Below are positions 3,873 through 58,320 of a DNA stretch of 64,000 bases, one piece after another. The stretch spans positions 1 to 64,000 of IMG/VR virus record IMGVR_UViG_3300046739_000039; one strand, 5' to 3'. The notes beneath the pieces were generated by a model. That model ran no database searches and was not told the DNA's origin. It worked only from the letters and a program-made list of their open reading frames with translations. Source of the stretch: a virus (lineage: Duplodnaviria > Caudoviricetes). The translations under genes were made by a program, and so were the position numbers. Every line of letters begins with the position of its first letter. Positions within the stretch are counted from its first letter, which is position 1.

Positions 3873-5657
3873 CTACTCACCCCAGGGGAGTCCTACGCGC
3901 TCCGCACAGTCGGGACCGTAGCCAACGGTCACGGAACGCTCATCCGTCAGACCCTTTGCGCAGAACACACAACGCTTATGCGTGTGTCCGAACCGTGCCG
4001 CATCCTCCGCGCTGATAGCGTCCGTGGCTTTGATCACGTGAATGGACTTAGGGGAGTACTCCCACCCGTTGTCAGTGAACTTAACGGCGTAGGCAATTCC
4101 CTTGACCGTGCGAATCTTGTAATACGTGTTGTTGAAGAAATAGACACCGTTCATATCCACGGTGACATTTCCAACGAGCATTTCGTCTTTTGCCTTTACC
4201 GGCGCGTCCTTAATCTTGAGGTTTTCCACTTCCCCATCAATTACCTTGCAACGGGTAATGGCAGTCTCAGCGTTCCCCTTCCAATCCTTGTGCGCCTTAA
4301 TACCGGCCGTAAGGCTCACGCGCTCCCCCACCATGCCGTCAAGGGCAGGTGACGACGCAAACCAACTGAACACGTTACCGGACGCGTCAGACAGCTTGTA
4401 GAGCGTGCTAGAGCCGTACTGCGTTTCGACGTTCCTTTCCGTTTCCACGGTGAGTGCGAGCGACCAACGCTCCCCGATTTCCCCAACGTGAACGGAAGTG
4501 CCCTTTTCGACCTTACGGATTAGCGTCCTTTCCAGGAATCGCGCCCACGCTTGCGGAGCGCTAGCGAGAATTCCCATATTGCGGAAAGAGACTTTTTCGG
4601 CGCGGGCAATGCTCTTGAGATTCAGCACGTACTCAGATGAGCCGCTGAATTCATCCGACCCAATCCATGCGCGCAATTCCTCGGCGCGCCCGTACATGTC
4701 TGCGGAGTGCTTAGAGAGACGCTTAAGGTCCTCAAGATACTCAGCGTTCCACTTGTCACGCTTAGGCGGATTGATGACGTCAAGGACAATGCCCTTAGTC
4801 GCTCCGGGCTCATTCGTCCGCACAAAGCCATACTCAGTGACTACGGCCCATGCAATGGCAAGAGCGGTAAGCGTCGTCACGTCCCGCTCACGTCCGCCAA
4901 ACTCCCCCGTGAATTCCTCCACATCGCTTTTCATTTTGTCCGGCGAGTAGGGAAGGGCAGTCCAACCCGTGAAATCCTTAATGCACGACGAACCAACCTG
5001 AACGTATTCGCCCGTTTCCGTGTTCCGCATGACATACGTCGACTTGCGGTAACGGTCCGTCTGGCAGTGGTCACACCACCCATTGCGGAGCAAGGAACGG
5101 TCAATCGACTTGACGCCCGGATAGGTGCGGACAATCAGACCCGCGTGAATGTCGTAATCGAGCGTCGCGACGAATTCCCAGTTAGGAAGCTTCGGCGCAA
5201 TTCCCGTGATTTTCGTCATGAAAACCACGTACTCAATTTCAATGCCGAACGCGTTGGTTTCCTTTTCGGTTACCTCACGCCATTCGACGTTGAGTCCGCC
5301 CGGAATACCGCGCTTTTCGCAGCGCGCATTAATCTTTTCGATCTTTTCGCGCGTCATTGCCAATTCGTATTCATTGAGCGAGAATTCCCAGGAAATGAAT
5401 TCCTCCCCCATTTCATCCGTGGAATTCACCACGGACTCATGCATACGCGCGTCCCGTTCCGCCTTACGCGTACGGTCGCTCATACGGCGCGCGTCCGGGC
5501 TCACACGGACACAGGTACGGCACAGGCGCGCACCCTCACCCTTCCCAGGGATGACAACGCGTCCGCATGCCGTGACGTCGTTGTGCATGCCCTTAGTGAT
5601 CACGTGCATGACTGCCCCGTGGAGCCGCGCGCCCGTTGTGATCTTGCTTGCGTCCAT
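3873..5657 (-). CDS. multidomain protein with Zn site, OB-fold-like segment and C-terminal DUF6011-like zinc ribbon
   Basis: 594 aa; CDHC...VGSSC; VGEIGER...AGIKAHKDWKG OB-like; C-terminal CVFCAKGLTDERSVTVGYGPDC. Confidence 0.8.
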   Translation of the reverse strand: MDASKITTGARLHGAVMHVITKGMHNDVTACGRVVIPGKGEGARLCRTCVRVSPDARRMSDRTRKAERDARMHESVVNSTDEMGEEFISWEFSLNEYELAMTREKIEKINARCEKRGIPGGLNVEWREVTEKETNAFGIEIEYVVFMTKITGIAPKLPNWEFVATLDYDIHAGLIVRTYPGVKSIDRSLLRNGWCDHCQTDRYRKSTYVMRNTETGEYVQVGSSCIKDFTGWTALPYSPDKMKSDVEEFTGEFGGRERDVTTLTALAIAWAVVTEYGFVRTNEPGATKGIVLDVINPPKRDKWNAEYLEDLKRLSKHSADMYGRAEELRAWIGSDEFSGSSEYVLNLKSIARAEKVSFRNMGILASAPQAWARFLERTLIRKVEKGTSVHVGEIGERWSLALTVETERNVETQYGSSTLYKLSDASGNVFSWFASSPALDGMVGERVSLTAGIKAHKDWKGNAETAITRCKVIDGEVENLKIKDAPVKAKDEMLVGNVTVDMNGVYFFNNTYYKIRTVKGIAYAVKFTDNGWEYSPKSIHVIKATDAISAEDAARFGHTHKRCVFCAKGLTDERSVTVGYGPDCAERVGLPWGE

Positions 5658-9230: not shown

Positions 9231-9470
9231 TTAGATTCGTCCCTCATTCAGAATAACTATTGTCTTTCTGCCTCGGCAATTAATACTGGGGCAGGTATTG
9301 AGAGAAGTTCTCAAACCGCAGTTAGAGCACTTTCTCATGGGTCTGTCCGGCAGTCTGATAGGTCTTACGTCCTTCATCTTCTCTCCTGTCTTGTTCAGCT
9401 CCCCCTTCGGAAGCGTTGCTTGGCTCTTAACGGGCTTACAAGGCCCTTCTGAGGCTCTGTAGGTACTCAT
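9231..9470 (-). CDS. small zinc-finger hypothetical protein
   Basis: CSNC...CPSINC; GGAG RBS. Confidence 0.55.
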   Translation of the reverse strand: MSTYRASEGPCKPVKSQATLPKGELNKTGEKMKDVRPIRLPDRPMRKCSNCGLRTSLNTCPSINCRGRKTIVILNEGRI

Positions 9471-9978
9471 AGGTCTCCTTGTTCCACCAGGCGTCCATGA
9501 AGGCGTTGTGGGCCCCCTCAGCCTGTTCTGGTACGCGAGGATTTCCCAGGCGCACGATTTCTGATTTCAGGTCGTTCGTGTACATGGGAAAGCCCGTAGG
9601 AAGATCAATCATTCTTCCATAGAGCTGACAGAGGGCTACATGGTCATAAGCTGAGTAGTAGGCCCATAGTTCTGGATTAGGCGTATCGAGTACGAAGCGC
9701 TTGATGTTATCGGCAATAGTCTTTCTGTCGGTAACAGTTCGCTTGTCATAGTCTTTGTGGAGTTCATCCCAATAAGGAAGTCCGTCTGTACCGACTGTTG
9801 CCGGAAGGGAGGTGAATACGTTCTTTCTCAGCCAGTCATGTTGGTAGACGTCTTTCAGGAGTTCGTAATCCTTGACTACTTGATAGATACCTGTACCGTC
9901 TTCCCGGATCATTCCGATAGAGATAAGACGGATAGTATTGCCGTCTTCAAGGAATTCTGTGTCGTAATAGATTCTCAC
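9436..9978 (-). CDS. 3'-5' exoribonuclease, RNase AS/Rv2179c (DUF5051)-like DEDD family
   Basis: YYDTEFLEDG..I.LISIG, WAYYSAYDHVALCQLYG, HNAFMDA motifs; GTG start overlaps the upstream TGA. Confidence 0.85.
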   Translation of the reverse strand: MRIYYDTEFLEDGNTIRLISIGMIREDGTGIYQVVKDYELLKDVYQHDWLRKNVFTSLPATVGTDGLPYWDELHKDYDKRTVTDRKTIADNIKRFVLDTPNPELWAYYSAYDHVALCQLYGRMIDLPTGFPMYTNDLKSEIVRLGNPRVPEQAEGAHNAFMDAWWNKETYEYLQSLRRAL

Positions 9979-10142
9979 AGTGTCTTCTGCCACTCCTTGA
10001 TGATATCCAGGTCTACACGGATGCAATAAGTGCGCAGAAGTGTCTTGAGAGCTGTGGGAGCCATGTCCCAGAGGTTCTTGGGGACTCCCGCGTGTTTTAT
10101 CAGCAAACCTAGTTCCCTGACGTTATGGACGTTGTTGGTCAT
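9975..10142 (-). CDS. hypothetical protein (55 aa, not in ORF track)
   Basis: MTNNVHNVRELG...; translationally coupled to both neighbours. Confidence 0.6.
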   Translation of the reverse strand: MTNNVHNVRELGLLIKHAGVPKNLWDMAPTALKTLLRTYCIRVDLDIIKEWQKTL

Positions 10143-10487: not shown

Positions 10488-11006
10488 TCAGAGCCCATTT
10501 TCCTGTTTCCACTCCTCAATTTCCTCCAAATGGTCGGCTGTGATGCCTGTTTGGGGAGAAATCCAGCGGATTCCGCTTCCTGGAGCACAGTTTTTCTCAA
10601 TCCAGTCCCTGTCAGCTCTTCCGACTGCATCATCGAGCCACAAAAACGGGATTCCTGGGCGATTTTCGTTCATCCAACTGGCTACTCGCTTCGTTTTCCA
10701 GTAAAGACCCTCTTTATTCCAGTGATCCCGGTCAATCCAGTCGATAACTGGGAGCTTGGGAAGGCCGATATGGCAGCCAACCCATTCATCGGCTTCAAAC
10801 TCCCAAGTCGTTGCCCAGATCAGCTCAGCTCCGGTAGCCGTCAGTTCGGCCCCGTGAGAGGGCTTGAGCCACAGTCTGTAGCCCTTTGGCGGGTGTCCGG
10901 TAGCTGGGAACGCTCTGTGGGTTTCAAAGCCCTCAGGGCGCTGTGTAGCCTTTGCAGCGTACGGGTTCAAAGGCCCGTCCACATCAAGTAGTAGTGCGAA
11001 TTTCAT
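10488..11006 (-). CDS. HAD-superfamily phosphatase (HAD_SAK, Swiss-army-knife RNA repair type)
   Basis: LLLDVDGPLNP, ELIWATTW, FLWLDD motifs; GGAGG RBS. Confidence 0.8.
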   Translation of the reverse strand: MKFALLLDVDGPLNPYAAKATQRPEGFETHRAFPATGHPPKGYRLWLKPSHGAELTATGAELIWATTWEFEADEWVGCHIGLPKLPVIDWIDRDHWNKEGLYWKTKRVASWMNENRPGIPFLWLDDAVGRADRDWIEKNCAPGSGIRWISPQTGITADHLEEIEEWKQENGL

Positions 11007-11110
11007 TATTTGCCTCCGTTTTACAGCAGCACCCGAAACCAAAGTTCTTCATGCCGCTATCTGTGTATTCGTATTCCCATTCACATGAAGAACAGCATGG
11101 TCCTTCGTGC

Positions 11111-17585: not shown

Positions 17586-17630
17586 CTGGCTCCAACCCAG
17601 CAGGACAAGGTTCGACTCCTTGGTGGCGTG
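17560..17630 (+). tRNA. tRNA-Trp(CCA), overlapping the HNH 3' end
   Basis: ATGCCAC/GTGGCGT acceptor; CTGG-CTCCAAC-CCAG; G73. Confidence 0.8.
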
Positions 17631-17634
17631 CAAT

Positions 17635-17666
17635 GAGTGTTGAGGGTTCGAATCCTTGACACCATG
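17635..17666 (+). pseudogene. 3' fragment of the interrupted tRNA-Trp
   Basis: GA completes the ACTGA anticodon stem; T-loop TTCGAAT; ACACCAT is the exact complement of ATGGTGT at 17165. Confidence 0.8.
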
Positions 17667-17716
17667 CGCTATATTTGATACGATAATGTTCAATCGCTTC
17701 CGCAAGGAAGCCTTAT

Positions 17717-17788
17717 TCCCGCGTAGCTCAATGGCAGAGCAGTCGACTGTTAATCGACCGGTTGTTGGTTCGAATCCAGCCGTGGGAG
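17717..17788 (+). tRNA. tRNA-Asn(GTT)
   Basis: GTCGA-CTGTTAA-TCGAC. Confidence 0.92.
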
Positions 17789-17791
17789 CTT

Positions 17792-17941
17792 GACAACGAT
17801 GCGTAGATAAGAGATACTTCATCGCAAAGGAAACCGCAGGTCGGAGGTTTGAATCCTCCCCTCCCGACCACTTCGGGTAGGTAGCTCAGTGGATAGAGCG
17901 GCGGTCACAGAAAAAGACTTTTATCGATCTTTCTAGTTGTC
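17792..17941 (+). ncRNA. Y-RNA-like RNA 1 (YrlA-type, circularly permuted tRNA domain)
   Basis: GACAAC/GTTGTC and GATAAGAG/CTTTTATC stems; inside: T arm GGAGG-TTTGAAT-CCTCC, closed acceptor stem with ACCA in the loop, D arm GCTC-AGTGGATA-GAGC; adjacent to Ro60. Confidence 0.8.
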
Positions 17942-17952
17942 TTTAAATTTAC

Positions 17953-18062
17953 ATACCGATGCGAAGACTAGGGTTACTTCTAACCAACCAAATATAGAGT
18001 GGGCAGGTTCGATTCCTCCCTCATGGGCTGGTGCCCTTTCCTTGGTCGCTTTTTCTAGGTAT
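17953..18062 (+). ncRNA. Y-RNA-like RNA 2 (reduced T-loop cargo)
   Basis: ATACC/GGTAT and GACTAGG/CCTTGGTC stems; shared GATGCGAAG...TTACTTC / TTTCTA motif; T-loop TTCGATT. Confidence 0.7.
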
Positions 18063-18078
18063 ACAACTTAACAAGCTT

Positions 18079-18151
18079 TACCCGATGCGTAGTCCACAGT
18101 TACTTCTTCAATTGGTGAAAACAAAGCACTGTAGACGATTTTTCTAGGGTA
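18079..18151 (+). ncRNA. Y-RNA-like RNA 3 (minimal)
   Basis: TACCC/GGGTA and GTCCACAGT/ACTGTAGAC stems; shared motif; only a small hairpin as cargo. Confidence 0.7.
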
Positions 18152-18161
18152 TATATTTTTA

Positions 18162-18309
18162 TGAGTACCGATGCGTAGTTCAGGAGTTACTTCTAATTTC
18201 CTGTTAAGAAAAAGGACCGGGTTCGAATCCCGGCGCGTCCATCCTTGGGCGTGAGGTGTAATGGCTGCATTAAGATATCACACTTCGGAACGCCTTTTCT
18301 AGGTACTCA
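18162..18309 (+). ncRNA. Y-RNA-like RNA 4 (permuted tRNA retaining an Asn GUU anticodon arm)
   Basis: TGAGTACC/GGTACTCA; shared motif; TTTC-CTGTTAA-GAAA, CCGGG-TTCGAAT-CCCGG, CGCGTCC/GGGCGTG, D arm GTGT-AATGGCT-GCAT. Confidence 0.75.
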
Positions 18310-18317
18310 ATTCTTAT

Positions 18318-18349
18318 ACCCCTATATCATGAGCGATATAGGGGTTTTT
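18318..18349 (+). terminator. intrinsic terminator after the Yrl array
   Basis: ACCCCTATATC/GATATAGGGGT followed by a T-tract. Confidence 0.7.
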
Positions 18350-18388
18350 AATTCACTTGTAACGTACCACACTATCAAGGAGGCAATA

Positions 18389-19975
18389 ATGGGTAAGTTC
18401 AACAAGCCTGTACGTACGGGAGTTACTTCTCCTGTAAAGACCACTAAGTCGGCTCTCAATGCAGACTTCAAGGCGGGTTTTGCGCGCACTCAGCAGAGTG
18501 AGCTGTTTCTACTTGCCGTTTCCAACTTTGTTGGTAAGGACACGTTTTACGAGACTGCCCAGAACCGTGATGACCGTTTCGCTAAGCTTTCTGCGGAAGT
18601 TGCTGTTGCGGACCCTCAGTGGTTCGGTGGCTTTGTCGGTTGGCTCCGTAACGACGCGTTCATGCGCTCTGCGTCCGTTGTAGCGGCTGTTGAGGGTGCT
18701 AAGGCACTCTACGACTCCGGAGTCATGAACGGGACTCCTAGGGCCCTTGTAGCAGCGTCTCAGGCGCGTGCTGATGAGCCTGGAGAGGTGCTGGCTTACT
18801 ACGAGGCTAAGTACGGTAAGAACTTCCCTGCCTTCCTTAAGAAGGGTGTTGCAGACGGCGCTAAGCGTCTCTACAACGAGTACTCTCTTCTTAAGTACGA
18901 CACTGACTCTAAGGGCTACCGTTTTGCGGATGTTCTTCAGTTGACTCACGCAAAGGCTGAGGGCACTAACCAGAATGCTCTGTTCAAGTACGCTTTGGAC
19001 CGACGTTATGGTAATGGCTCTATTGAAGGCCACGATTACGCGCTTGACATGATTAGCACTCGTGCTAACCTGATGGCTGCGCCTGTCGAGAAGCGTAAGG
19101 CTCTGATTGGTACTCAGGCCGGTATGCAGACTCTGTCTCGTGCCGGATTCACCTGGGAGGCGCTGTCTGGATGGCTTCAGGGTCCTATGGATGCTACAGC
19201 TTGGGAAGCGGTTATTCCTAACATGGGTTACATGGCGTTGCTCCGCAACCTGCGTAACTTTGTGGATGCGGAAATCTCTGCTACTGTTCTTCGCAGGGTT
19301 CTTAACAAGCTTGCTGATCCTGAGCAGGTTGCAAAGAGCAAGCAGTTCCCTTTCCGATTCCTTGCGGCTTACCAGGCTAACAAGGGTAACCTGAAGATCG
19401 CTTCGGCACTTGAGGAAGCTCTTGAGGCATCTCTGAGCAACGTTCCTTCTCTGAAGGGTCGTACTCTGATCCTGGTTGACCGTTCTGGTTCTATGTTTGA
19501 CACCAATGGTGGCACTCAGGGACTTGACAGAGCTGACACGGCTGCTATCTTTGGTTCTGCGCTTGCGCTTCGTGCCGAGGATGCTGACCTGGTTCAGTTC
19601 GGGTCTTCTTGGGGTGGACGTAAGCCTTACGAGGCTGTAACCTTCAAGAAGGGTAATTCTCTTCTGCCTATGCTGGACAAGTTCCGTGACATGGGTGGAA
19701 CCGATACCCGAGCTGCTGTTCAGGGGAGCTTCAAGAACCACGACCGTATTATCATCGTAACTGATGAGCAGTACAATGGTTGGGGTGGAGATCCGCTTAC
19801 CTCTGTTCCTGCTAACGTTCCTGTCTACACCTGGAACCTTGGCGGTTACCGAGTAGCCCAGAGTGAGTCTGGTTCTAAGAAGCGTCACACCTTCGGTGGA
19901 CTGACTGACAAGGGTTTCCAGATGATCCCTCTCATTGAGGCGGGTCAGAGCCAGCAGTGGCCTTGGGAAAGCTGA
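18389..19975 (+). CDS. rsr: Ro60/Rsr RNA-binding protein (TROVE plus vWA domains)
   Basis: SELFLLAVSNFVG..TFYE, RADEPGE.LAY, TWEALSGW, MGYMALLRNLRNF, SKQFPFRFLAAY, vWA MIDAS LVDRSGSM...GGTD...TDEQ; AGGAGG RBS at ATG 18389. Confidence 0.93.
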   Translation: MGKFNKPVRTGVTSPVKTTKSALNADFKAGFARTQQSELFLLAVSNFVGKDTFYETAQNRDDRFAKLSAEVAVADPQWFGGFVGWLRNDAFMRSASVVAAVEGAKALYDSGVMNGTPRALVAASQARADEPGEVLAYYEAKYGKNFPAFLKKGVADGAKRLYNEYSLLKYDTDSKGYRFADVLQLTHAKAEGTNQNALFKYALDRRYGNGSIEGHDYALDMISTRANLMAAPVEKRKALIGTQAGMQTLSRAGFTWEALSGWLQGPMDATAWEAVIPNMGYMALLRNLRNFVDAEISATVLRRVLNKLADPEQVAKSKQFPFRFLAAYQANKGNLKIASALEEALEASLSNVPSLKGRTLILVDRSGSMFDTNGGTQGLDRADTAAIFGSALALRAEDADLVQFGSSWGGRKPYEAVTFKKGNSLLPMLDKFRDMGGTDTRAAVQGSFKNHDRIIIVTDEQYNGWGGDPLTSVPANVPVYTWNLGGYRVAQSESGSKKRHTFGGLTDKGFQMIPLIEAGQSQQWPWES

Positions 19976-22927: not shown

Positions 22928-23005
22928 GGGTCTGGACGGTGTCGACGTAGGTGAAAGCCGCACGCGGAACGCTCACGGACAGGGGTTCGATTCCCCTCAG
23001 ATCCA
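22928..23005 (+). ncRNA. miniature tmRNA-like RNA (tRNA-like domain only, no mRNA domain)
   Basis: GGGTCTG/CAGATCC acceptor with G3:U70 and A73; stemless D loop GACGGTGTCGAC; GGAC-AGGGG-TTCGATT-CCCCT; only about 30 nt between the halves. Confidence 0.75.
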
Positions 23006-23066
23006 CGGCTGGTTATGCAGGAATTACCCCGTACCTGCGTGCTCAACGGTTAAGAGCCCAGCGCTT

Positions 23067-24733: not shown

Positions 24734-24762
24734 TTGACAGGGGTTTTTCAATGTTCTAGGCT
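24734..24762 (+). promoter_or_regulatory. promoter for the RNA ligase, overlapping a terminator hairpin
   Basis: TTGACA-N17-TAGGCT. Confidence 0.7.
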
Positions 24763-24790
24763 GTACCACAACATCAACGAAGGAGGAGCA

Positions 24791-25846
24791 ATGAAGCTGT
24801 ACGATCTGTTCGGTTACCGAGAGTACATGTACATGCATGACCAGGGTTACGTTCGTGAGAATGCACACCCGACGCTTGATCTGGTTATCTATAACTATAC
24901 GGAAAAGGCGCAGTTCGACAACGAGTGGAACAACGTCACTACTCAGTGCCGTGGTCTTATCGCAAATTCGGCAGGCACAGTAATTGCGCGTCCATTCGAT
25001 AAGTTTCTGAACTATGAGCAGAATCCTGCTGATAAGCTTCTTATGGACTTCCCTGTTATAGCTACCGATAAGATGGACGGCTCTCTTGGTATCCTCTGGG
25101 ACTACAAGGATGAGCAGGGTATTGCAACTCGTGGTTCTTTCACTTCTGAGCAGGCAATTCACGCTACTGAATTGTGGAAGCGCAAGTATGGTTTCCGCAT
25201 TTCGGCTAACTGGACTTACCTGTTCGAGATCGTCTATCCCGCAAACCGTATTGTCCTGGACTACGACGAGATGGATGAGCTGGTTCTGCTGGGGGTACGG
25301 GACATTGAGGAAGGCGATGTGTTGCTTCCTAACGAGGTTCCAACGTGGCGGGGTCCCAAGACTCAGACCTTCCCCTACAAGACGCTCAGAGAGGCCCTGG
25401 AGGCCCCTCCGCGACCCAATGCAGAGGGCATGGTCGTCTACTTCCCGGACTTTCAGTACCGAATCAAGATCAAGCAGGCAGATTACATCGCTCTGCACAA
25501 GATTGTGACCGGTTTGACAGAGCGGCGAGTGTGGGAGAACATGAAGGAGGGTCAGACGCTCCAGGATCTGTGCGAAATTATTCCTGATGAGTGGCATGAC
25601 TGGCTTCGTGATACCTATAAGAAGATCCGTCAGGACTTTTTGCTCATTGACACCCTCGCGAAGAGTGACTATCGTCAGATTTGCGCAGCTCTGGAGCGGG
25701 ATGGGTTGCTAGGAGACCGAAAGGAGTTCGCACGCCTCGCAACCAGCAAGGAATGGACTGAATATCCTACCCTGGTATTCAATTTGCTGGATGGAAAGGA
25801 CACCACTGACCGTATCTACGGGATGATTCGTCCTACCGCAGAGTAA
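24791..25846 (+). CDS. RNA ligase, T4 Rnl1 (RnlA) family
   Basis: CRGLI, ARPFDKFLNY, motif I KMDGSL, ATRGSF, TYLFEI, EGMVV, KIK; AGGAGG RBS. Confidence 0.9.
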   Translation: MKLYDLFGYREYMYMHDQGYVRENAHPTLDLVIYNYTEKAQFDNEWNNVTTQCRGLIANSAGTVIARPFDKFLNYEQNPADKLLMDFPVIATDKMDGSLGILWDYKDEQGIATRGSFTSEQAIHATELWKRKYGFRISANWTYLFEIVYPANRIVLDYDEMDELVLLGVRDIEEGDVLLPNEVPTWRGPKTQTFPYKTLREALEAPPRPNAEGMVVYFPDFQYRIKIKQADYIALHKIVTGLTERRVWENMKEGQTLQDLCEIIPDEWHDWLRDTYKKIRQDFLLIDTLAKSDYRQICAALERDGLLGDRKEFARLATSKEWTEYPTLVFNLLDGKDTTDRIYGMIRPTAE

Positions 25847-36959: not shown

Positions 36960-37334
36960 ATGCCACCACGTAAGCGTGCCGGAGATCTTACCGGTATTGA
37001 GACTGAGCGTCTTCAAAAGGAAAACCAGGCAGCCCTTAAGGAGCGCGCCAAGGAAATTGCCATGATGGCAGAAGTTGAGAATGAGTTCAACGATATTCCT
37101 GTTGACTATTCCAACGGTCCGATTACTTCCGTTGTAAGTGACCTTGATGTAAGTGATGAGATTGCTCTAGAAGAGCCAACCAAGACTATTATTCCTATCA
37201 CTACACTTGAGCAGGTTACCTTTGGTGCCGGGAAGCACTACAACTTTGAAGAGGGACGCAAGTACGTTGTTCCTGTAGAATTGGCACGACACCTATCAAG
37301 CAAGGGCCTCCTTTGGGAGGGCGGATACCGTTAA
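36960..37334 (+). CDS. hypothetical virion-associated protein
   Basis: GGAG RBS; synteny. Confidence 0.75.
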   Translation: MPPRKRAGDLTGIETERLQKENQAALKERAKEIAMMAEVENEFNDIPVDYSNGPITSVVSDLDVSDEIALEEPTKTIIPITTLEQVTFGAGKHYNFEEGRKYVVPVELARHLSSKGLLWEGGYR

Positions 37335-37347
37335 GGGGAAATAGAAT

Positions 37348-37800
37348 ATGTCAGGTAATCTAACTGATACAACCGATCGTGCAATTCTCAACTGGATAAC
37401 CGGCACGTCACTAGGTGGTTGGACCCCACCATCAACAGCATATATTGCTTTGCTTACTGTGGACCCTGCAACTACCGCAGCTATTCCTACAGATCCTCAG
37501 CTATCAGAGCTGACTGAACTAGCAGCTACAGGTTACGCTCGACAGATCGCTACATTTACTGTGGCTACTTCTCCTACACAGGGAACCAGTCAGATCCAAA
37601 ACAGTAACTTGATTACATTTGGTCCGTTTACTTCTGCCTCAGGTTCAGGAACTCCTACGACCTATGGCGCTCTAGTCAATGTGGTATCCGGTACTTCCGG
37701 AGAAGTCATTGGTGTATGGGAGTGGGATACTCCTATTACAGCTCCGCAGAATCAGTCCATTACTATCCCGATTGCAAATCTCACCTTCACACAACAGTAG
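37348..37800 (+). CDS. putative virion structural protein
   Basis: YIALLT.DP...GYARQ...NSNLITF motif typical of actinophage minor structural proteins. Confidence 0.75.
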   Translation: MSGNLTDTTDRAILNWITGTSLGGWTPPSTAYIALLTVDPATTAAIPTDPQLSELTELAATGYARQIATFTVATSPTQGTSQIQNSNLITFGPFTSASGSGTPTTYGALVNVVSGTSGEVIGVWEWDTPITAPQNQSITIPIANLTFTQQ

Positions 37801-55920: not shown

Positions 55921-58320
55921 ATGAGCCAAGGATTTGGTGTTGATATCTATGGTATTGACTACTATGGATATTCACAGCCAGCGGACTACAGCGTTGCACC
56001 CTTCGTAGCTAAGCAAGCTAATTACGGTGACATCGTACTTTCCTGGGCTTCTCCTAATACAACCTCATGGAAGTTTCTGGAACTGGTTAGAAGTACATAT
56101 GGGTACCCTAACCGTCCAGAAGACGGAGTAGTACTTACGACCATCACCCCCGGAACTATGGTGCGAACCTATGATGATCCGGGGCTTGATGCTGGAACAA
56201 TTTATTACTACGCAATGTTTATTACCATTGAGGCTCCTACATGGAGTTCAGGATCTACCTACGTATTAAATCAACAAGTGCTATTCAATGGTCTTTACTG
56301 GACTAGTACACAGAATGGAAACATCAACCACACCCCTGCGGCAGGGTCGTCCTTCTGGTCACCTACGGAATACGTTCCTTCATGGTATCCAGCAGGCTTT
56401 GCAGCGACACTAGCTCTGGGTAATCAGGGTTATACTAATCTGCTTTACTACAGAACCCCCCAGCCGTATAAGACAACCACATCCGATACCTTCTCAACTG
56501 TTGAAGTTGACAACCAGTCGCTGTACAACTACGAATCCCTATTCGGATTCGGTCTGGATATGATTAAAGCTGAATACGATTCATACCTAGAATTGAGTGA
56601 TGCGGATACCGTCTCGGCTGCTCACCTGGATATGTTAGGACAGCAGCTAGGTATTAATACTGACTACCTGTCTACTCCTCAGCAGAGAAGACAGCGTATT
56701 AAGAATGCCGCAGTTAACTACCGCATTAAGGGACAGACACAAAGCATTCACAATATTATCGCTGAGCTAGCTGGTTGGGATTCCGAAATTACAATAGGCG
56801 CCAACATGTATAACAGCGCTGATCAAACTGCATTCATTCACCCAGCGTATGACAAGTGGAATCTTAATTCCACGTACTTCCCAGGTCAGCAGATTCAGTA
56901 CAATGGATACAACTACAACTGTACGACTCAGGCCAAGGGGCAGGCACAGGCTCCTACAGGAACCACAGCGTCTAACACTTGGTGGTCCGCCGCTCAGATT
57001 TATATTCTGGACAACACAGTCAATAAGAATCCACAGACTAACGCTTATTCCACCTGGGGATTCACAGGATTGAGCGGTACTACTGGCAGCATGGAAGGTG
57101 TCCGTACTGGACTGCCACACCCTACTGATACGACTATCAACTACTGGGGAGCACTGTCCTCTAAAGCTACCAACAACCCTGGAAACAGTTTCTATAACTT
57201 GGATTCCACATTCAAGTTGAATACACCTAACTATGCAGCAGGTACAAACTATGTAATCAATAACTCTGTTCTGTACACTGACGGCTATTACTATCTAGCA
57301 TTGAAGCCGTCTGGACCTGGTACCCCTTACGGAGCCAAGACTCCCGGTACTGATCAGAACTTCTGGAAGCCGTTCTACTATGTGACTACAGATACACCTA
57401 ACATTGTTAGAGATGGTGTACCTATTCAGCAGTTGGAGCAGTGGAATACGGCTACTACATATCAGCCTGGTGACTATGTTCAGTACAACGGTATTACTTA
57501 TCTGTGCCAGCAGACCAATCTAAACTCTGCGCCTACCGGATACTACTATTCCAATGCCGGATGGGTATTTATCTCTCCTTCTCAGAAGACCGTAGTTACT
57601 TCGTCTTATTGGGCTCGTAAGGTAAATGACGCGGGAGCGAATACAACTGTTACTCCATTCTTGTATTTCTATGACAAGAAGGGTAAGCTTATTAATAACA
57701 CCTCTGTTAACTACTCAGGCTATAACGTAGGCTCTGAAGGTGTATTGGCTCGAATGGTAGCTGACTACACAGACCTGCATGGAACTACTGAGACGTCTAT
57801 TGCTAACGCGAATACAGATGGAACAATCCATACGGGTACCTGGTTTGGTAGTGGAACCGCTGGAACAATGGCTAACGTCTGGTTCAGCAGTTATGGTATG
57901 GCTGCGGTGAATCAATTCATCACTGGAACTCTTACGTATCAATACCTAACCATTGATGCTGGGGCTCCTTTCGGTAGATTTGCTATGACCTTCCTCACTG
58001 ATTATGTCGATACAGCTCATAAGACTCACGGATTAGTATTTGGTATGCTTAACGCTAGCAATTTCTTTTACGTGACAAGAACAAGTCTGCGTAAGGTAGT
58101 AGCAGGAGTGGACAGTCTTATAGCTTCATGGACTCGTTTGTCCAATGGAGATCGAATTGTTGTAGACGCTGGACTTGACGTAGACGTTTATAAGTACAGC
58201 CGCACAGGTGACGGTGCCCTAACACGTATCGCGCACTCAGTAGGAACTGGTCCAGGCGACACAGGAACTGTCGGCCGAACTGGCTATATTCACAAGTACT
58301 CAGCAACTGGAGCACTCTAA
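55921..58320 (+). CDS. baseplate wedge/tail protein (gpI-like) with CBM5/12-like repeats
   Basis: LDMLGQQLG...YRIKG; repeated W.....Y..G..V.YNG..Y modules. Confidence 0.8.
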   Translation: MSQGFGVDIYGIDYYGYSQPADYSVAPFVAKQANYGDIVLSWASPNTTSWKFLELVRSTYGYPNRPEDGVVLTTITPGTMVRTYDDPGLDAGTIYYYAMFITIEAPTWSSGSTYVLNQQVLFNGLYWTSTQNGNINHTPAAGSSFWSPTEYVPSWYPAGFAATLALGNQGYTNLLYYRTPQPYKTTTSDTFSTVEVDNQSLYNYESLFGFGLDMIKAEYDSYLELSDADTVSAAHLDMLGQQLGINTDYLSTPQQRRQRIKNAAVNYRIKGQTQSIHNIIAELAGWDSEITIGANMYNSADQTAFIHPAYDKWNLNSTYFPGQQIQYNGYNYNCTTQAKGQAQAPTGTTASNTWWSAAQIYILDNTVNKNPQTNAYSTWGFTGLSGTTGSMEGVRTGLPHPTDTTINYWGALSSKATNNPGNSFYNLDSTFKLNTPNYAAGTNYVINNSVLYTDGYYYLALKPSGPGTPYGAKTPGTDQNFWKPFYYVTTDTPNIVRDGVPIQQLEQWNTATTYQPGDYVQYNGITYLCQQTNLNSAPTGYYYSNAGWVFISPSQKTVVTSSYWARKVNDAGANTTVTPFLYFYDKKGKLINNTSVNYSGYNVGSEGVLARMVADYTDLHGTTETSIANANTDGTIHTGTWFGSGTAGTMANVWFSSYGMAAVNQFITGTLTYQYLTIDAGAPFGRFAMTFLTDYVDTAHKTHGLVFGMLNASNFFYVTRTSLRKVVAGVDSLIASWTRLSNGDRIVVDAGLDVDVYKYSRTGDGALTRIAHSVGTGPGDTGTVGRTGYIHKYSATGAL

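What the first reader, a model, noticed from the sequence alone, without database searches (positions are those of the whole stretch)
17792..19975. Tandem array of four modular Y-RNA-like RNAs with interchangeable cargo domains, directly upstream of a phage Ro60 gene
Seen: four units (17792-17941, 17953-18062, 18079-18151, 18162-18309) share one architecture. Each has an outer stem, then 5' GATGCG(T/A)AG, an inner stem, TACTTC, a cargo, the inner stem 3' strand, G-N3-TTTCTA and the outer stem 3' strand. The stems differ in sequence but covary (outer: GACAAC/GTTGTC, ATACC/GGTAT, TACCC/GGGTA, TGAGTACC/GGTACTCA; inner: GATAAGAG/CTTTTATC, GACTAGG/CCTTGGTC, GTCCACAGT/ACTGTAGAC, GTTCAGGAGT/ACTTCGGAAC). 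The loop motif is near-invariant, as expected for a protein-binding RNA handle. The array ends in a terminator 40 nt before a clear TROVE+vWA Ro60 ORF. Established: Ro60/Rsr binds Y RNAs through a bulged stem; bacterial YrlA RNAs are encoded next to rsr and carry a tRNA-like module; Y RNA can tether Rsr to effectors such as PNPase. Inference: one phage Ro60 is programmed by four adaptor RNAs sharing a handle but displaying different cargos (full tRNA elbow, minimal T-loop, none, tRNA mimic with anticodon). This could be a reconfigurable RNP for tRNA repair or surveillance, or an anti-defence decoy. Single YrlA genes are known; I do not recall a diversified four-member array, but novelty needs a search.
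Basis: partly seen in the sequence, partly recalled or inferred. Interest (0 to 1): 0.92.

Follow-up and report, generated by a model that had tools for sequence, protein, structure and literature searches.

The report
Four Y RNAs beside phage Ro60
A Streptomyces-type phage carries four small structured RNA genes, two of them rearranged tRNA look-alikes, just ahead of its gene for the RNA-binding ring protein Ro60. They are very probably that protein's partner "Y RNAs", a known kind of particle, here in a large conserved set that databases leave unannotated or mislabel as tRNA.

Summary
Four tandem units (17792-17941, 17953-18062, 18079-18151, 18162-18309) share one handle: outer stem, CGAUGCG(U/A)AG, inner stem, (U/A)UACUUC, variable interior, inner stem, UUUCUAG, outer stem. 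The 5' motif occurs only here in the 111.7-kb phage genome. Consensus folds of orthologues from seven related phages recover the handle for each unit class. On 31 units, 93% of cells pair against 66% when shuffled.

A handle model finds all four window units, including two it was not trained on. In five whole phage genomes, all 24 of its hits adjoin the Ro60 gene on the same strand. Every contig with the handle also encodes a TROVE protein. Related arrays have 2-7 units, and mycobacteriophage Bxz1 has three.

Units 1 and 4 have YrlA topology: T arm, closed acceptor-like hairpin, D arm. The ARAGORN tRNA-Asn call inside unit 4 is a false positive.

This is a Ro60/Y-RNA module of the YrlA/YrlB kind, a new member rather than a new system. 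Expression, Ro60 binding and the role of the interiors are inferred. This scan already found the same array in other BRock-type phages and similar arrays elsewhere.

The parts
17656..17684 (+). Candidate sigma-70-like promoter (TTGACA, 17 nt, TACGAT, with TG) upstream of tRNA-Asn. It could drive tRNA-Asn plus the four units as one transcript.
   Evidence: Consensus scan, 10 of 12 matches. This is a consensus match only.
17717..17789 (+). tRNA-Asn(GUU), ending 2 nt before unit 1. Its 3' processing would create the 5' end of unit 1.
   Evidence: Rfam tRNA 66.3 bits and ARAGORN.
17792..17941 (+). Unit 1, a YrlA-type Y RNA. Outer stem 17792-17797/17936-17941; GAUGCGUA 17798-17805; inner stem 17806-17813/17918-17925; AUACUUC 17814-17820; stem 17833-17837/17901-17905; T arm 17843-17859; closed acceptor-like hairpin 17860-17881; D arm 17884-17899.
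   Evidence: RNAalifold on 8 orthologues gives 40 pairs, 18 with compensatory changes. Rfam YrlA 30.7 bits, E 1.6e-4. Handle model R2 53.1 bits, and this unit was not in the training set. Coordinates.
17790..17818 (+). Promoter-like TTGACA-17-GATACT overlapping the 5' handle of unit 1. The TTGACA is kept in all 8 unit-1 orthologues.
   Evidence: Its function is unknown, and it is a caveat for the 5' end of unit 1.
17953..18062 (+). Unit 2, a YrlB-like Y RNA. It has the handle, an imperfect T-arm-like hairpin (18001-18020) and a GC hairpin (18025-18036), but no D arm.
   Evidence: RNAalifold on 7 orthologues recovers the handle. Model R1, built from unit-3 orthologues only, scores it at 36.3 bits, E 5e-6. 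R2 scores 61.9 bits.
18079..18151 (+). Unit 3, a minimal Y RNA. It has the handle plus one small conserved hairpin (18107-18119) whose loop is AAUUGG-like.
   Evidence: RNAalifold on 8 orthologues gives 14 pairs, 6 with compensatory changes. R2 scores 66.1 bits.
18162..18309 (+). Unit 4, a YrlA-type Y RNA with an extra hairpin. Anticodon-loop-like hairpin 18197-18211 (loop CUGUUAA); T arm 18217-18233; closed acceptor-like hairpin 18235-18252; D arm 18256-18270; inner stem 18178-18187/18282-18291.
   Evidence: RNAalifold on 8 orthologues gives 38 pairs, 21 with compensatory changes. The closed hairpin pairs in 100% of cells, with 3 compensatory pairs; the tRNA-type acceptor pairing holds in 79% with none. 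R2 scores 51 bits, and this unit was not in the training set.
18318..18349 (+). Intrinsic terminator-like hairpin (11 pairs) plus a T run, closing the array.
18389..19975 (+). Phage Ro60 (Rsr-like) gene, 528 aa, TROVE plus vWA with MIDAS-like residues. RBS AAGGAGG at 18377-18383.
   Evidence: Pfam TROVE 6.3e-17 and VWA_2 7.6e-5. PDB hits: phiLo Ro60 9KOP/9L5Y at 4e-23 and D. radiodurans Rsr 2NVO at 3.6e-4. Translation. Annotated 'Ro-like RNA binding protein' in relatives.

Best explanation
The region is a small operon of four Y RNA genes of the bacterial YrlA/YrlB kind, placed in the phage's tRNA island directly upstream of its Ro60 gene.

Shown by sequence: each RNA closes its 5' and 3' ends into one handle. 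The handle has a variable outer stem and two invariant G-C/A-U pairs with a UA bulge. Next comes an internal loop carrying UGCG(U/A)A on the 5' side and a U-rich strand ending UUUCUAG on the 3' side. A variable inner stem follows, then (U/A)UACUUC.

Inferred: the handle is the docking site for the phage Ro60 ring. The 5'-strand CG(A/U)A motif corresponds to the GNCGAA/CGAA motif of known bacterial and phage Y RNAs, and UUAC corresponds to their YUAY.

The interiors differ. Units 1 and 4 display a tRNA elbow (T arm, sealed acceptor-like stem, D arm). Unit 4 adds a hairpin with an anticodon-like 7-nt loop. Unit 2 keeps only a T-arm-like piece, and unit 3 only a mini hairpin.

Inferred mechanism: the array is transcribed with tRNA-Asn and ended by the terminator at 18318-18349. 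It is then cut into RNAs of about 73-150 nt, and each loads onto Ro60. As with Deinococcus and phiLo Y RNAs and PNPase, the RNAs would then gate the ring or tether it to tRNA-binding or RNA-decay and repair factors during infection.
For: - Motif uniqueness.
- Four independent consensus folds give the same handle with many compensatory changes.
- On 31 units, 93.2% of cells pair against 65.9% shuffled, and the covariation score is 0.723 against 0.186 (0 of 500 shuffles reach it). Slid controls score 0.13 or less.
- Model R2 finds the untrained window units 1 and 4 at 53 and 51 bits. Nothing else in the genome scores above 22 bits.
- In five whole phage genomes (about 600 kb), 24 of 24 R2 hits adjoin the Ro60 gene on the same strand.
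- Of 82 loci tested, 27 are R2-positive. Of these, 23 hold Ro60 within the fetched locus, and the other four lie on contigs that also encode TROVE. All 53 loci that matched the pattern but not R2 lack Ro60.
- Each Ro60 clade has its own 3'-strand motif, shared by all units of a genome.
- The best Rfam YrlA hit in each phage genome lies beside Ro60.
- The motifs agree with PMC4201824 (GNCGAAN0-1G, YUAY, T-AS-D order). PMC12135203 shows a phage Ro60 binding two upstream Y-like RNAs and host PNPase.
- Nearby genes are of the RNA-repair or RNA-decay kind: Rnl1-type ligase, HAD_SAK_2, Rv2179c-like exoribonuclease.
Against: - There are no expression or binding data.
- The Rfam YrlA score (30.7 bits) is far below the gathering score of 69 bits.
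- The 5' motif is UGCG(U/A)AG, not an exact GNCGAA.
- Folding energies are not unusual for units 1-3.
- The A5 alignment was fitted to the model structure, which favours pairing counts.
- A conserved promoter-like site sits inside the 5' handle of unit 1. If it is used, it would give a transcript without that strand.
- In one complete phage (G002) the units lie about 33 kb from the TROVE gene, on the other strand.
- No promoter-like site lies between the terminator and the Ro60 ATG.
Confidence: 0.8

Rival explanations
1. The units are stand-alone tRNA-like decoys or anti-defence RNAs. They would soak up host anticodon nucleases or other tRNA-targeting immunity factors, and the shared handle would be a processing or stability element, not a Ro60 site.
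For: Units 1 and 4 mimic the tRNA elbow. Unit 4 and its counterparts in many phages carry a 7-nt loop with U at position 2, and the 'anticodon' varies between phages (GUU, GCU, GAU, GGA, UCU and others). The array sits among 29 tRNAs and near RNA-repair-type genes. One phage has its units far from Ro60.
Against: Every genome with the handle also encodes TROVE, and most have it adjacent. The handle's 3' motif changes with the Ro60 clade. Units 2 and 3 have little or no tRNA mimicry yet keep the full handle. A decoy role could also coexist with Ro60 binding.
Confidence: 0.1
2. The array is a cis-acting leader that controls Ro60 expression, for example by terminator read-through that responds to Ro60 or tRNA levels, and is not a set of free RNAs.
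For: The array ends in a terminator about 40 nt before the Ro60 start, and no promoter-like site lies between them.
Against: In Atuin, four units lie downstream of Ro60. In G002 the units are 33 kb away on the other strand. Unit number varies from 2 to 7. Each unit is a self-closed structure with its own covarying terminal stem.
Confidence: 0.04
3. Unit 4 is a genuine extra tRNA-Asn(GUU), as ARAGORN and Rfam call it, and as relatives annotate it (tRNA-Arg in GiJojo, tRNA-Ser in Alone3). The rest would be decayed tRNA genes.
For: ARAGORN calls tRNA-Asn at 18170-18240, and Rfam tRNA scores 32.8 bits. GAUGCG can pair with the strand after the T arm in 4 of 8 orthologues.
Against: That acceptor pairing breaks in 4 of 8 sequences at two positions and shows no compensatory change. 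The competing closed hairpin pairs in 48 of 48 cells, with 3 compensatory pairs. The D arm is missing from the tRNA alignment. The called anticodon changes identity between close relatives. The handle stems covary around the whole unit.
Confidence: 0.03

Closest known systems
Mycobacterium smegmatis YrlA and YrlB with Rsr, and the YrlA-like RNAs of mycobacteriophages such as ET08 and Bxz1 (Chen et al. 2014, PMC4201824; Rfam RF02553)
   Same: Encoded just upstream of the Ro60 gene on the same strand, and actinobacterial in setting. The ends pair into a stem that carries a CGAA-type 5' motif, followed by YUAY. The tRNA-like module runs T arm, closed acceptor-like stem, D arm. A second RNA keeps only a T arm (YrlB, like unit 2). 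Bxz1 itself shows three units of the same build upstream of its Ro60 gene.
   Different: There are four units here (4-5 in close relatives, up to 7 elsewhere) against the one or two reported. The 5' motif is UGCG(U/A)AG, not GNCGAA. There is a clade-specific conserved 3' strand, UUUCUAG, with a UA bulge. Rfam's model scores only 30.7 bits. No binding, modification or RNase P data exist for these RNAs.
Thermus phage phiLo Ro60 with Yrl1 and Yrl2 (NAR 2025, PMC12135203; PDB 9KOP, 9L5Y)
   Same: A phage-encoded Ro60, and the best PDB match of this protein (E 4e-23). Several Y-like RNAs lie upstream of the gene, each a stem, internal loop and stem with a CGAA-type motif. In that system, binding to Ro60 and complexes with host PNPase were shown in vitro.
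   Different: phiLo has two RNAs and no described tRNA-like modules. Here there are four, and two carry tRNA elbows. The host and phage lineages are unrelated.
Deinococcus radiodurans Yrn1/Yrn2 with Rsr and PNPase (RYPER), and the four human Y RNAs
   Same: Several small RNAs share a Ro-binding terminal stem and differ in the distal module. In Deinococcus they are encoded upstream of rsr (four small RNAs a-d were seen there). The Y RNA tethers Ro60 to an effector.
   Different: Those handles keep the metazoan-type bulged helix. Yrn1's tRNA-like part is arranged differently. No Rfam Y_RNA hit was found here.

Membership tests
YrlA-type bacterial/phage Y RNA (Chen et al. 2014; Rfam RF02553) | Encoded within about 4 kb of a Ro60/TROVE gene on the same strand | tested here: met
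   The units span 17792-18309 (+) and Ro60 spans 18389-19975 (+). The same layout holds in relatives.
YrlA-type bacterial/phage Y RNA (Chen et al. 2014; Rfam RF02553) | Reaches the Rfam gathering score of RF02553 (69 bits) | tested here: not met
   Unit 1 scores 30.7 bits, E 1.6e-4. Bxz1, a relative of the mycobacteriophages in which the family was reported, reaches only 32.5 bits. None of the five phage genomes passes, so this cut-off excludes actinophage YrlAs in general.
YrlA-type bacterial/phage Y RNA (Chen et al. 2014; Rfam RF02553) | GNCGAAN0-1G motif near the 5' end (presumed Ro60 contact) | tested here: inconclusive
   Unit 2 has UGCGAAG, with the CGAA core but U in place of the first G. 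Units 1, 3 and 4 have UGCGUAG. The position in the 5' strand of the terminal stem-loop-stem is as expected.
YrlA-type bacterial/phage Y RNA (Chen et al. 2014; Rfam RF02553) | Conserved YUAY after the stem, at the start of the variable region | tested here: met
   AUAC in unit 1 and UUAC in units 2-4, invariant TAC-TTC in orthologues.
YrlA-type bacterial/phage Y RNA (Chen et al. 2014; Rfam RF02553) | tRNA-like module in the order T arm, closed acceptor-like stem, D arm | tested here: met
   Met for units 1 and 4, with covariation in the T stem and the closed stem. Unit 2 has only a T-arm-like hairpin (YrlB-like), and unit 3 has neither.
YrlA-type bacterial/phage Y RNA (Chen et al. 2014; Rfam RF02553) | Bound by Ro60/Rsr in vivo; carries tRNA-type modifications | not testable with these tools
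   Needs RIP/EMSA and modification mapping.
Ro60/Rsr protein (TROVE + vWA) | TROVE domain | tested here: met
   PF05731, 6.3e-17, 62.3 bits against a cut-off of 23.
Ro60/Rsr protein (TROVE + vWA) | C-terminal vWA domain with MIDAS residues | tested here: inconclusive
   VWA_2 scores 23.7 bits, below the 27-bit cut-off. DRSGS, GTDT and VTDE motifs are present in the translation.
Ro60/Rsr protein (TROVE + vWA) | Sequence homology to Ro60 proteins of solved structure | tested here: met
   phiLo Ro60 9KOP/9L5Y at 4e-23 and D. radiodurans Rsr 2NVO at 3.6e-4. The ring fold itself was not modelled.
tRNA (for unit 4, called tRNA-Asn by ARAGORN) | Conserved acceptor stem pairing of the 5' and 3' ends, and a D arm after position 9 | tested here: not met
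   The acceptor pairing holds in 79% of cells, shows no compensatory change and breaks in 4 of 8 sequences at two pairs. The D arm is deleted in the Rfam alignment. The competing closed hairpin pairs in 100% of cells with covariation.
Metazoan-type Y RNA (Rfam RF00019) | Match to the family model | tested here: not met
   No hit at E up to 10 on 17600-18450.

The most novel reading that the evidence does not exclude
Actinophage Ro60 genes come with a diversifying set of 2-7 adaptor RNAs whose interiors are swapped, gained and lost while the handle co-evolves with the Ro60 clade. The anticodon-loop-like hairpin that follows UUACUUC has U at loop position 2 in all 12 distinct 7-nt loop sequences I compiled by eye from two scripts, and its 'anticodon' is hypervariable. 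It could present bait to host tRNA-cleaving defence nucleases or to tRNA-modifying enzymes. That would make the Ro60 particle a phage counter-defence or tRNA-surveillance device whose specificity is set by which RNAs the array holds.
Probability: 0.12. Interest if true: 0.8.

Novelty: new member of a known kind. Interest (0 to 1): 0.45.

Why it matters
The finding gives the Ro60/Y-RNA field a large natural series: dozens of cultured and metagenomic actinophages with 2-7 paralogous Y RNAs. One handle is held constant within each genome while the effector modules vary. This could help work out what the tRNA-like module of bacterial Y RNAs is for, which is still unknown.

Cultured relatives (BRock, GiJojo, Alone3, Neville, Atuin) and their laboratory hosts make direct tests possible.

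There is also a practical annotation point. These RNAs are unannotated or mislabelled as tRNAs or small ORFs in GenBank phage records, and Rfam's YrlA threshold misses them.

Tried and rejected
- **Rfam at gathering thresholds** gave only tRNA and tmRNA hits in the array. The YrlA hit appeared only at relaxed E-values.
- **Folding energy against shuffles** did not discriminate.
- **My first rigid, anchor-based pair count** of the inner stem gave only 64% pairing, because the 3' loop length varies by 1 nt between units. Ortholog alignments and covariance models replaced it.
- **Model R1**, built from unit-3 orthologues alone, found unit 2 but missed window units 1 and 4 at E up to 1. The iterated model R2 found them.
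- **The 16-base DNA pattern scan of viral contigs** returned mostly chance single matches: 53 of 82 loci tested (80 from this scan plus two bacterial loci) had neither an R2 hit nor Ro60.
- **The tRNA reading of unit 4** was rejected.
- **The encoded ACCA in the loop of unit 1's closed stem** is not conserved in orthologues, so I give it no weight.
- **Literature access:** the supplementary tables of Chen et al. 2014 and two Wolin-lab reviews were not held. I could not check how many YrlA-like RNAs per phage were already listed there.
- **tblastn with this Ro60** found no mycobacteriophage in the 'phages' collection. Bxz1 was reached by accession instead.
Full report
**What is there.** The window belongs to a complete 111,671-bp virus record. 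Its nearest named relatives are Streptomyces phages of the BRock type: BRock, GiJojo, Alone3, LuckySocke and pSt2308. The region lies inside a tRNA island with 29 tRNA calls.

- tRNA-Asn(GUU) ends at 17789.
- Four units follow at 17792-17941, 17953-18062, 18079-18151 and 18162-18309.
- AU-rich spacers of 11, 16 and 10 nt separate the units.
- A terminator-like hairpin with a T run lies at 18318-18349.
- An RBS follows, then a 528-aa ORF at 18389-19975.

The ORF matches Pfam TROVE (6e-17) and, more weakly, VWA_2. It carries DRSGS/GTDT/VTDE MIDAS-like motifs. Its best solved relatives are the Ro60 of Thermus phage phiLo (4e-23) and D. radiodurans Rsr.

**Checking the observation.** The word CGATGCG[AT]AG occurs four times in the 64 kb, only here. 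The combined 5' pattern occurs four times in the whole genome, and its reversed control never. Single-sequence folding energies are unremarkable for units 1-3, so the case rests on comparative evidence.

**Comparative evidence for the structure.** The interval between tRNA-Asn and the Ro60 gene holds the same kind of array in GiJojo, Alone3 and pSt2308 (five units), in BRock (four), and in metagenomic relatives L010-L012. I aligned the orthologues of each unit class separately and let RNAalifold predict the fold.

- All four alignments gave the same handle: outer stem, two invariant pairs (G-C, A-U) with a UA bulge on the 3' side, an internal loop, then the inner stem.
- Compensatory changes were seen in 18 of 40, 21 of 38, 6 of 14 and 6 of 14 predicted pairs.
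- A covariance model built only from unit-3 orthologues (R1) picked up other unit classes and units in distant phages.
- On the resulting 31-unit alignment, 93.2% of cells pair against 65.9% after shuffling. Cells changed on both sides number 119 against 37. The covariation score is 0.723 against 0.186 (0 of 500 shuffles reach it), and slid controls score 0.13 or less.
- That alignment was fitted to the model, which favours pairing. The MAFFT-based folds do not have this bias.
- The second model (R2) finds window units 1 and 4, which it had not seen, at 53 and 51 bits. Nothing else in the genome scores above 22 bits.

**Link to Ro60.**

- In five whole phage genomes (GiJojo, BRock, Neville, Atuin and the L015 contig; about 600 kb), all 24 R2 hits at E up to 0.1 lie beside the Ro60 gene on its strand.
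- A pattern scan of IMG/VR returned 85 stretches. I tested 82 loci: 80 of these plus two bacterial loci.
- 27 loci are R2-positive. Of these, 23 contain Ro60 in the fetched piece. All 53 R2-negative loci lack it.
- The four exceptions all sit on contigs that encode TROVE. One locus was simply truncated. One has a seven-unit array about 0.8 kb upstream of Ro60. One is a provirus with a weak TROVE match 2-10 kb away. One complete phage (G002) has its units about 33 kb from the gene on the other strand.
- Arrays have 2-7 units. Two bacterial loci, from Marinactinospora and an Acidimicrobiales MAG, have 2 and 3.
- More distant Ro60 phages keep the 5' UGCG(A/U) motif and GUUACUUC but carry a different 3'-strand motif in each clade, shared by all units of a genome (Satis, Frankenweenie, VanLee, Neville, L015, Bxz1). 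That pattern is expected if one genome-encoded partner reads the handle.

**What the units are.** Chen et al. 2014 (PMC4201824) define YrlA RNAs by four features:

- proximity to rsr on the same strand;
- a GNCGAAN0-1G motif near the 5' end;
- a conserved YUAY that starts the variable region;
- a tRNA-like module ordered T arm, closed acceptor-like stem, D arm.

They also found T-arm-only partners (YrlB) and YrlA-like RNAs in 22 phages.

Units 1 and 4 have this topology with covariation. All four units have (U/A)UAC. The 5' motif is a near match (UGCGAAG in unit 2, UGCGUAG in the others). Unit 2 is YrlB-like. Unit 3 is a bare handle with one small conserved hairpin.

Rfam's YrlA model hits unit 1 only at 30.7 bits against a threshold of 69. 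It does no better on mycobacteriophage Bxz1 (32.5 bits), and in each phage its best genome-wide hit is next to Ro60. Bxz1 shows three units of the same build upstream of its Ro60 gene.

**Unit 4 is not a tRNA.** ARAGORN and Rfam call a tRNA-Asn at 18170-18240. GenBank annotates the equivalent element as tRNA-Arg in GiJojo and tRNA-Ser in Alone3.

- The acceptor pairing this call needs uses the invariant GAUGCG of the handle. It breaks in half of the orthologues and shows no compensatory change.
- The competing closed hairpin pairs in 48 of 48 cells, with three compensatory pairs.
- The stem-loop read as an anticodon arm is real. It has a 7-nt loop with U at position 2 in all 12 distinct 7-nt loop sequences I compiled by eye, and the middle triplet varies widely.
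- In Chen's scheme this stem-loop is the 'V' stem-loop.
- Whether it mimics an anticodon arm functionally is open.
- As an inference, this layout fits the published idea that YrlA arose from a dimeric tRNA transcript (10.1101/312249).

**How it most likely works.**

- Shown: the architecture, its conservation and covariation, and its genomic tie to Ro60.
- Inferred: the array is co-transcribed with tRNA-Asn from the promoter-like site at 17656-17684 and ends at the terminator.
- Inferred: it is processed into four RNAs, and each docks on the phage Ro60 through the handle.
- Inferred: the distal modules gate the ring or tether it to partners. This follows the Deinococcus Rsr-Y RNA-PNPase complex and the in vitro phiLo Ro60-Yrl-PNPase complexes (PMC4201824, PMC12135203).
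- The neighbourhood encodes an Rnl1-type RNA ligase, a HAD_SAK_2 phosphatase and an Rv2179c-like 3'-5' exoribonuclease. This fits an RNA-repair or surveillance setting but proves nothing.
- Caveat: a promoter-like TTGACA-17-GATACT overlaps the 5' handle of unit 1, and its TTGACA is kept in all eight orthologues.

**Novelty.** Phage Ro60 genes with adjacent Y RNAs, and sets of Y RNAs that share a Ro-binding stem, are established. I found no paper describing arrays of three or more in actinophages. The 2014 supplementary tables and two reviews were not available to me.

Earlier notes of this scan report the same four-unit array in other BRock-type phages and similar arrays beside Ro60-like genes in unrelated phages. 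I file this as a new member of a known kind: real, well conserved, under-annotated, and of moderate interest.

Noticed in passing
L001 3360-3434 (GiJojo gene 29); L002 2857-2930 (Alone3 gene 36); L006 2204-2275 (VanLee tRNA-Arg); L008 2245-2335 (Frankenweenie tRNA-Pro): tRNA genes annotated in GenBank records fall inside Y-RNA-like units upstream of Ro60. They are probably false tRNA calls, made from handle strand, hairpin and T arm.
   Followed up: partly
L007 1897-2307 and 2357 (Neville gp88-gp90 and the gp91 start): Three small 'hypothetical protein' CDS overlap the four Y-RNA-like units. The annotated Ro60 start at record position 56525 overlaps the last unit (56491-56575), so it is probably set too far upstream.
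   Followed up: partly
window 17790-17818: A sigma-70-like TTGACA-17-GATACT sits inside unit 1's 5' handle. The TTGACA is conserved in all 8 orthologues. Unit 1 alone has AUACUUC, which gives the better -10. It may be an internal promoter for units 2-4.
   Followed up: partly
L012 2366-2465 and L011 2364-2465: A conserved element of about 100 nt lies between unit 0 and unit 1 and is closed by a TGATAGAAGG/CCTTCTATCA stem. It is not a handle unit, and its identity is unknown.
   Followed up: no
G002 (contig of L111): units at 1143-1331 and 4403-4539 (+), TROVE at 37282-37500 (-): A complete 106-kb phage whose Y-RNA-like units are about 33 kb from the Ro60 gene, on the other strand. It is the only clear case of unlinked units.
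   Followed up: partly
G004 (contig of L093) 777-1583: A seven-unit array about 0.8 kb upstream of a TROVE ORF, the largest array seen here.
   Followed up: partly
window 9436-10026 (-), 10488-11042 (-), 24734-25846 (+): An Rv2179c-like 3'-5' exoribonuclease, a HAD_SAK_2 'Swiss Army Knife RNA repair' phosphatase domain and a T4 Rnl1-type RNA ligase flank the tRNA island.
   Followed up: partly
window 22928-23008: Rfam tmRNA hit (55.4 bits) that spans model positions 1-374 in only 81 nt. It looks like a miniature tmRNA-like element with the interior missing.
   Followed up: no
window 18107-18119, with counterparts in Neville, VanLee and L015 units: The small hairpin of the minimal unit keeps an AAUUGG-type loop across distant phages. 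This resembles a tRNA D loop, so it may be a mini D-arm mimic.
   Followed up: no
window 57580-57676: A weak handle-model hit (22.3 bits, E about 0.005) far from the array. By eye it shows no outer stem or 5' motif, so it is probably chance.
   Followed up: partly
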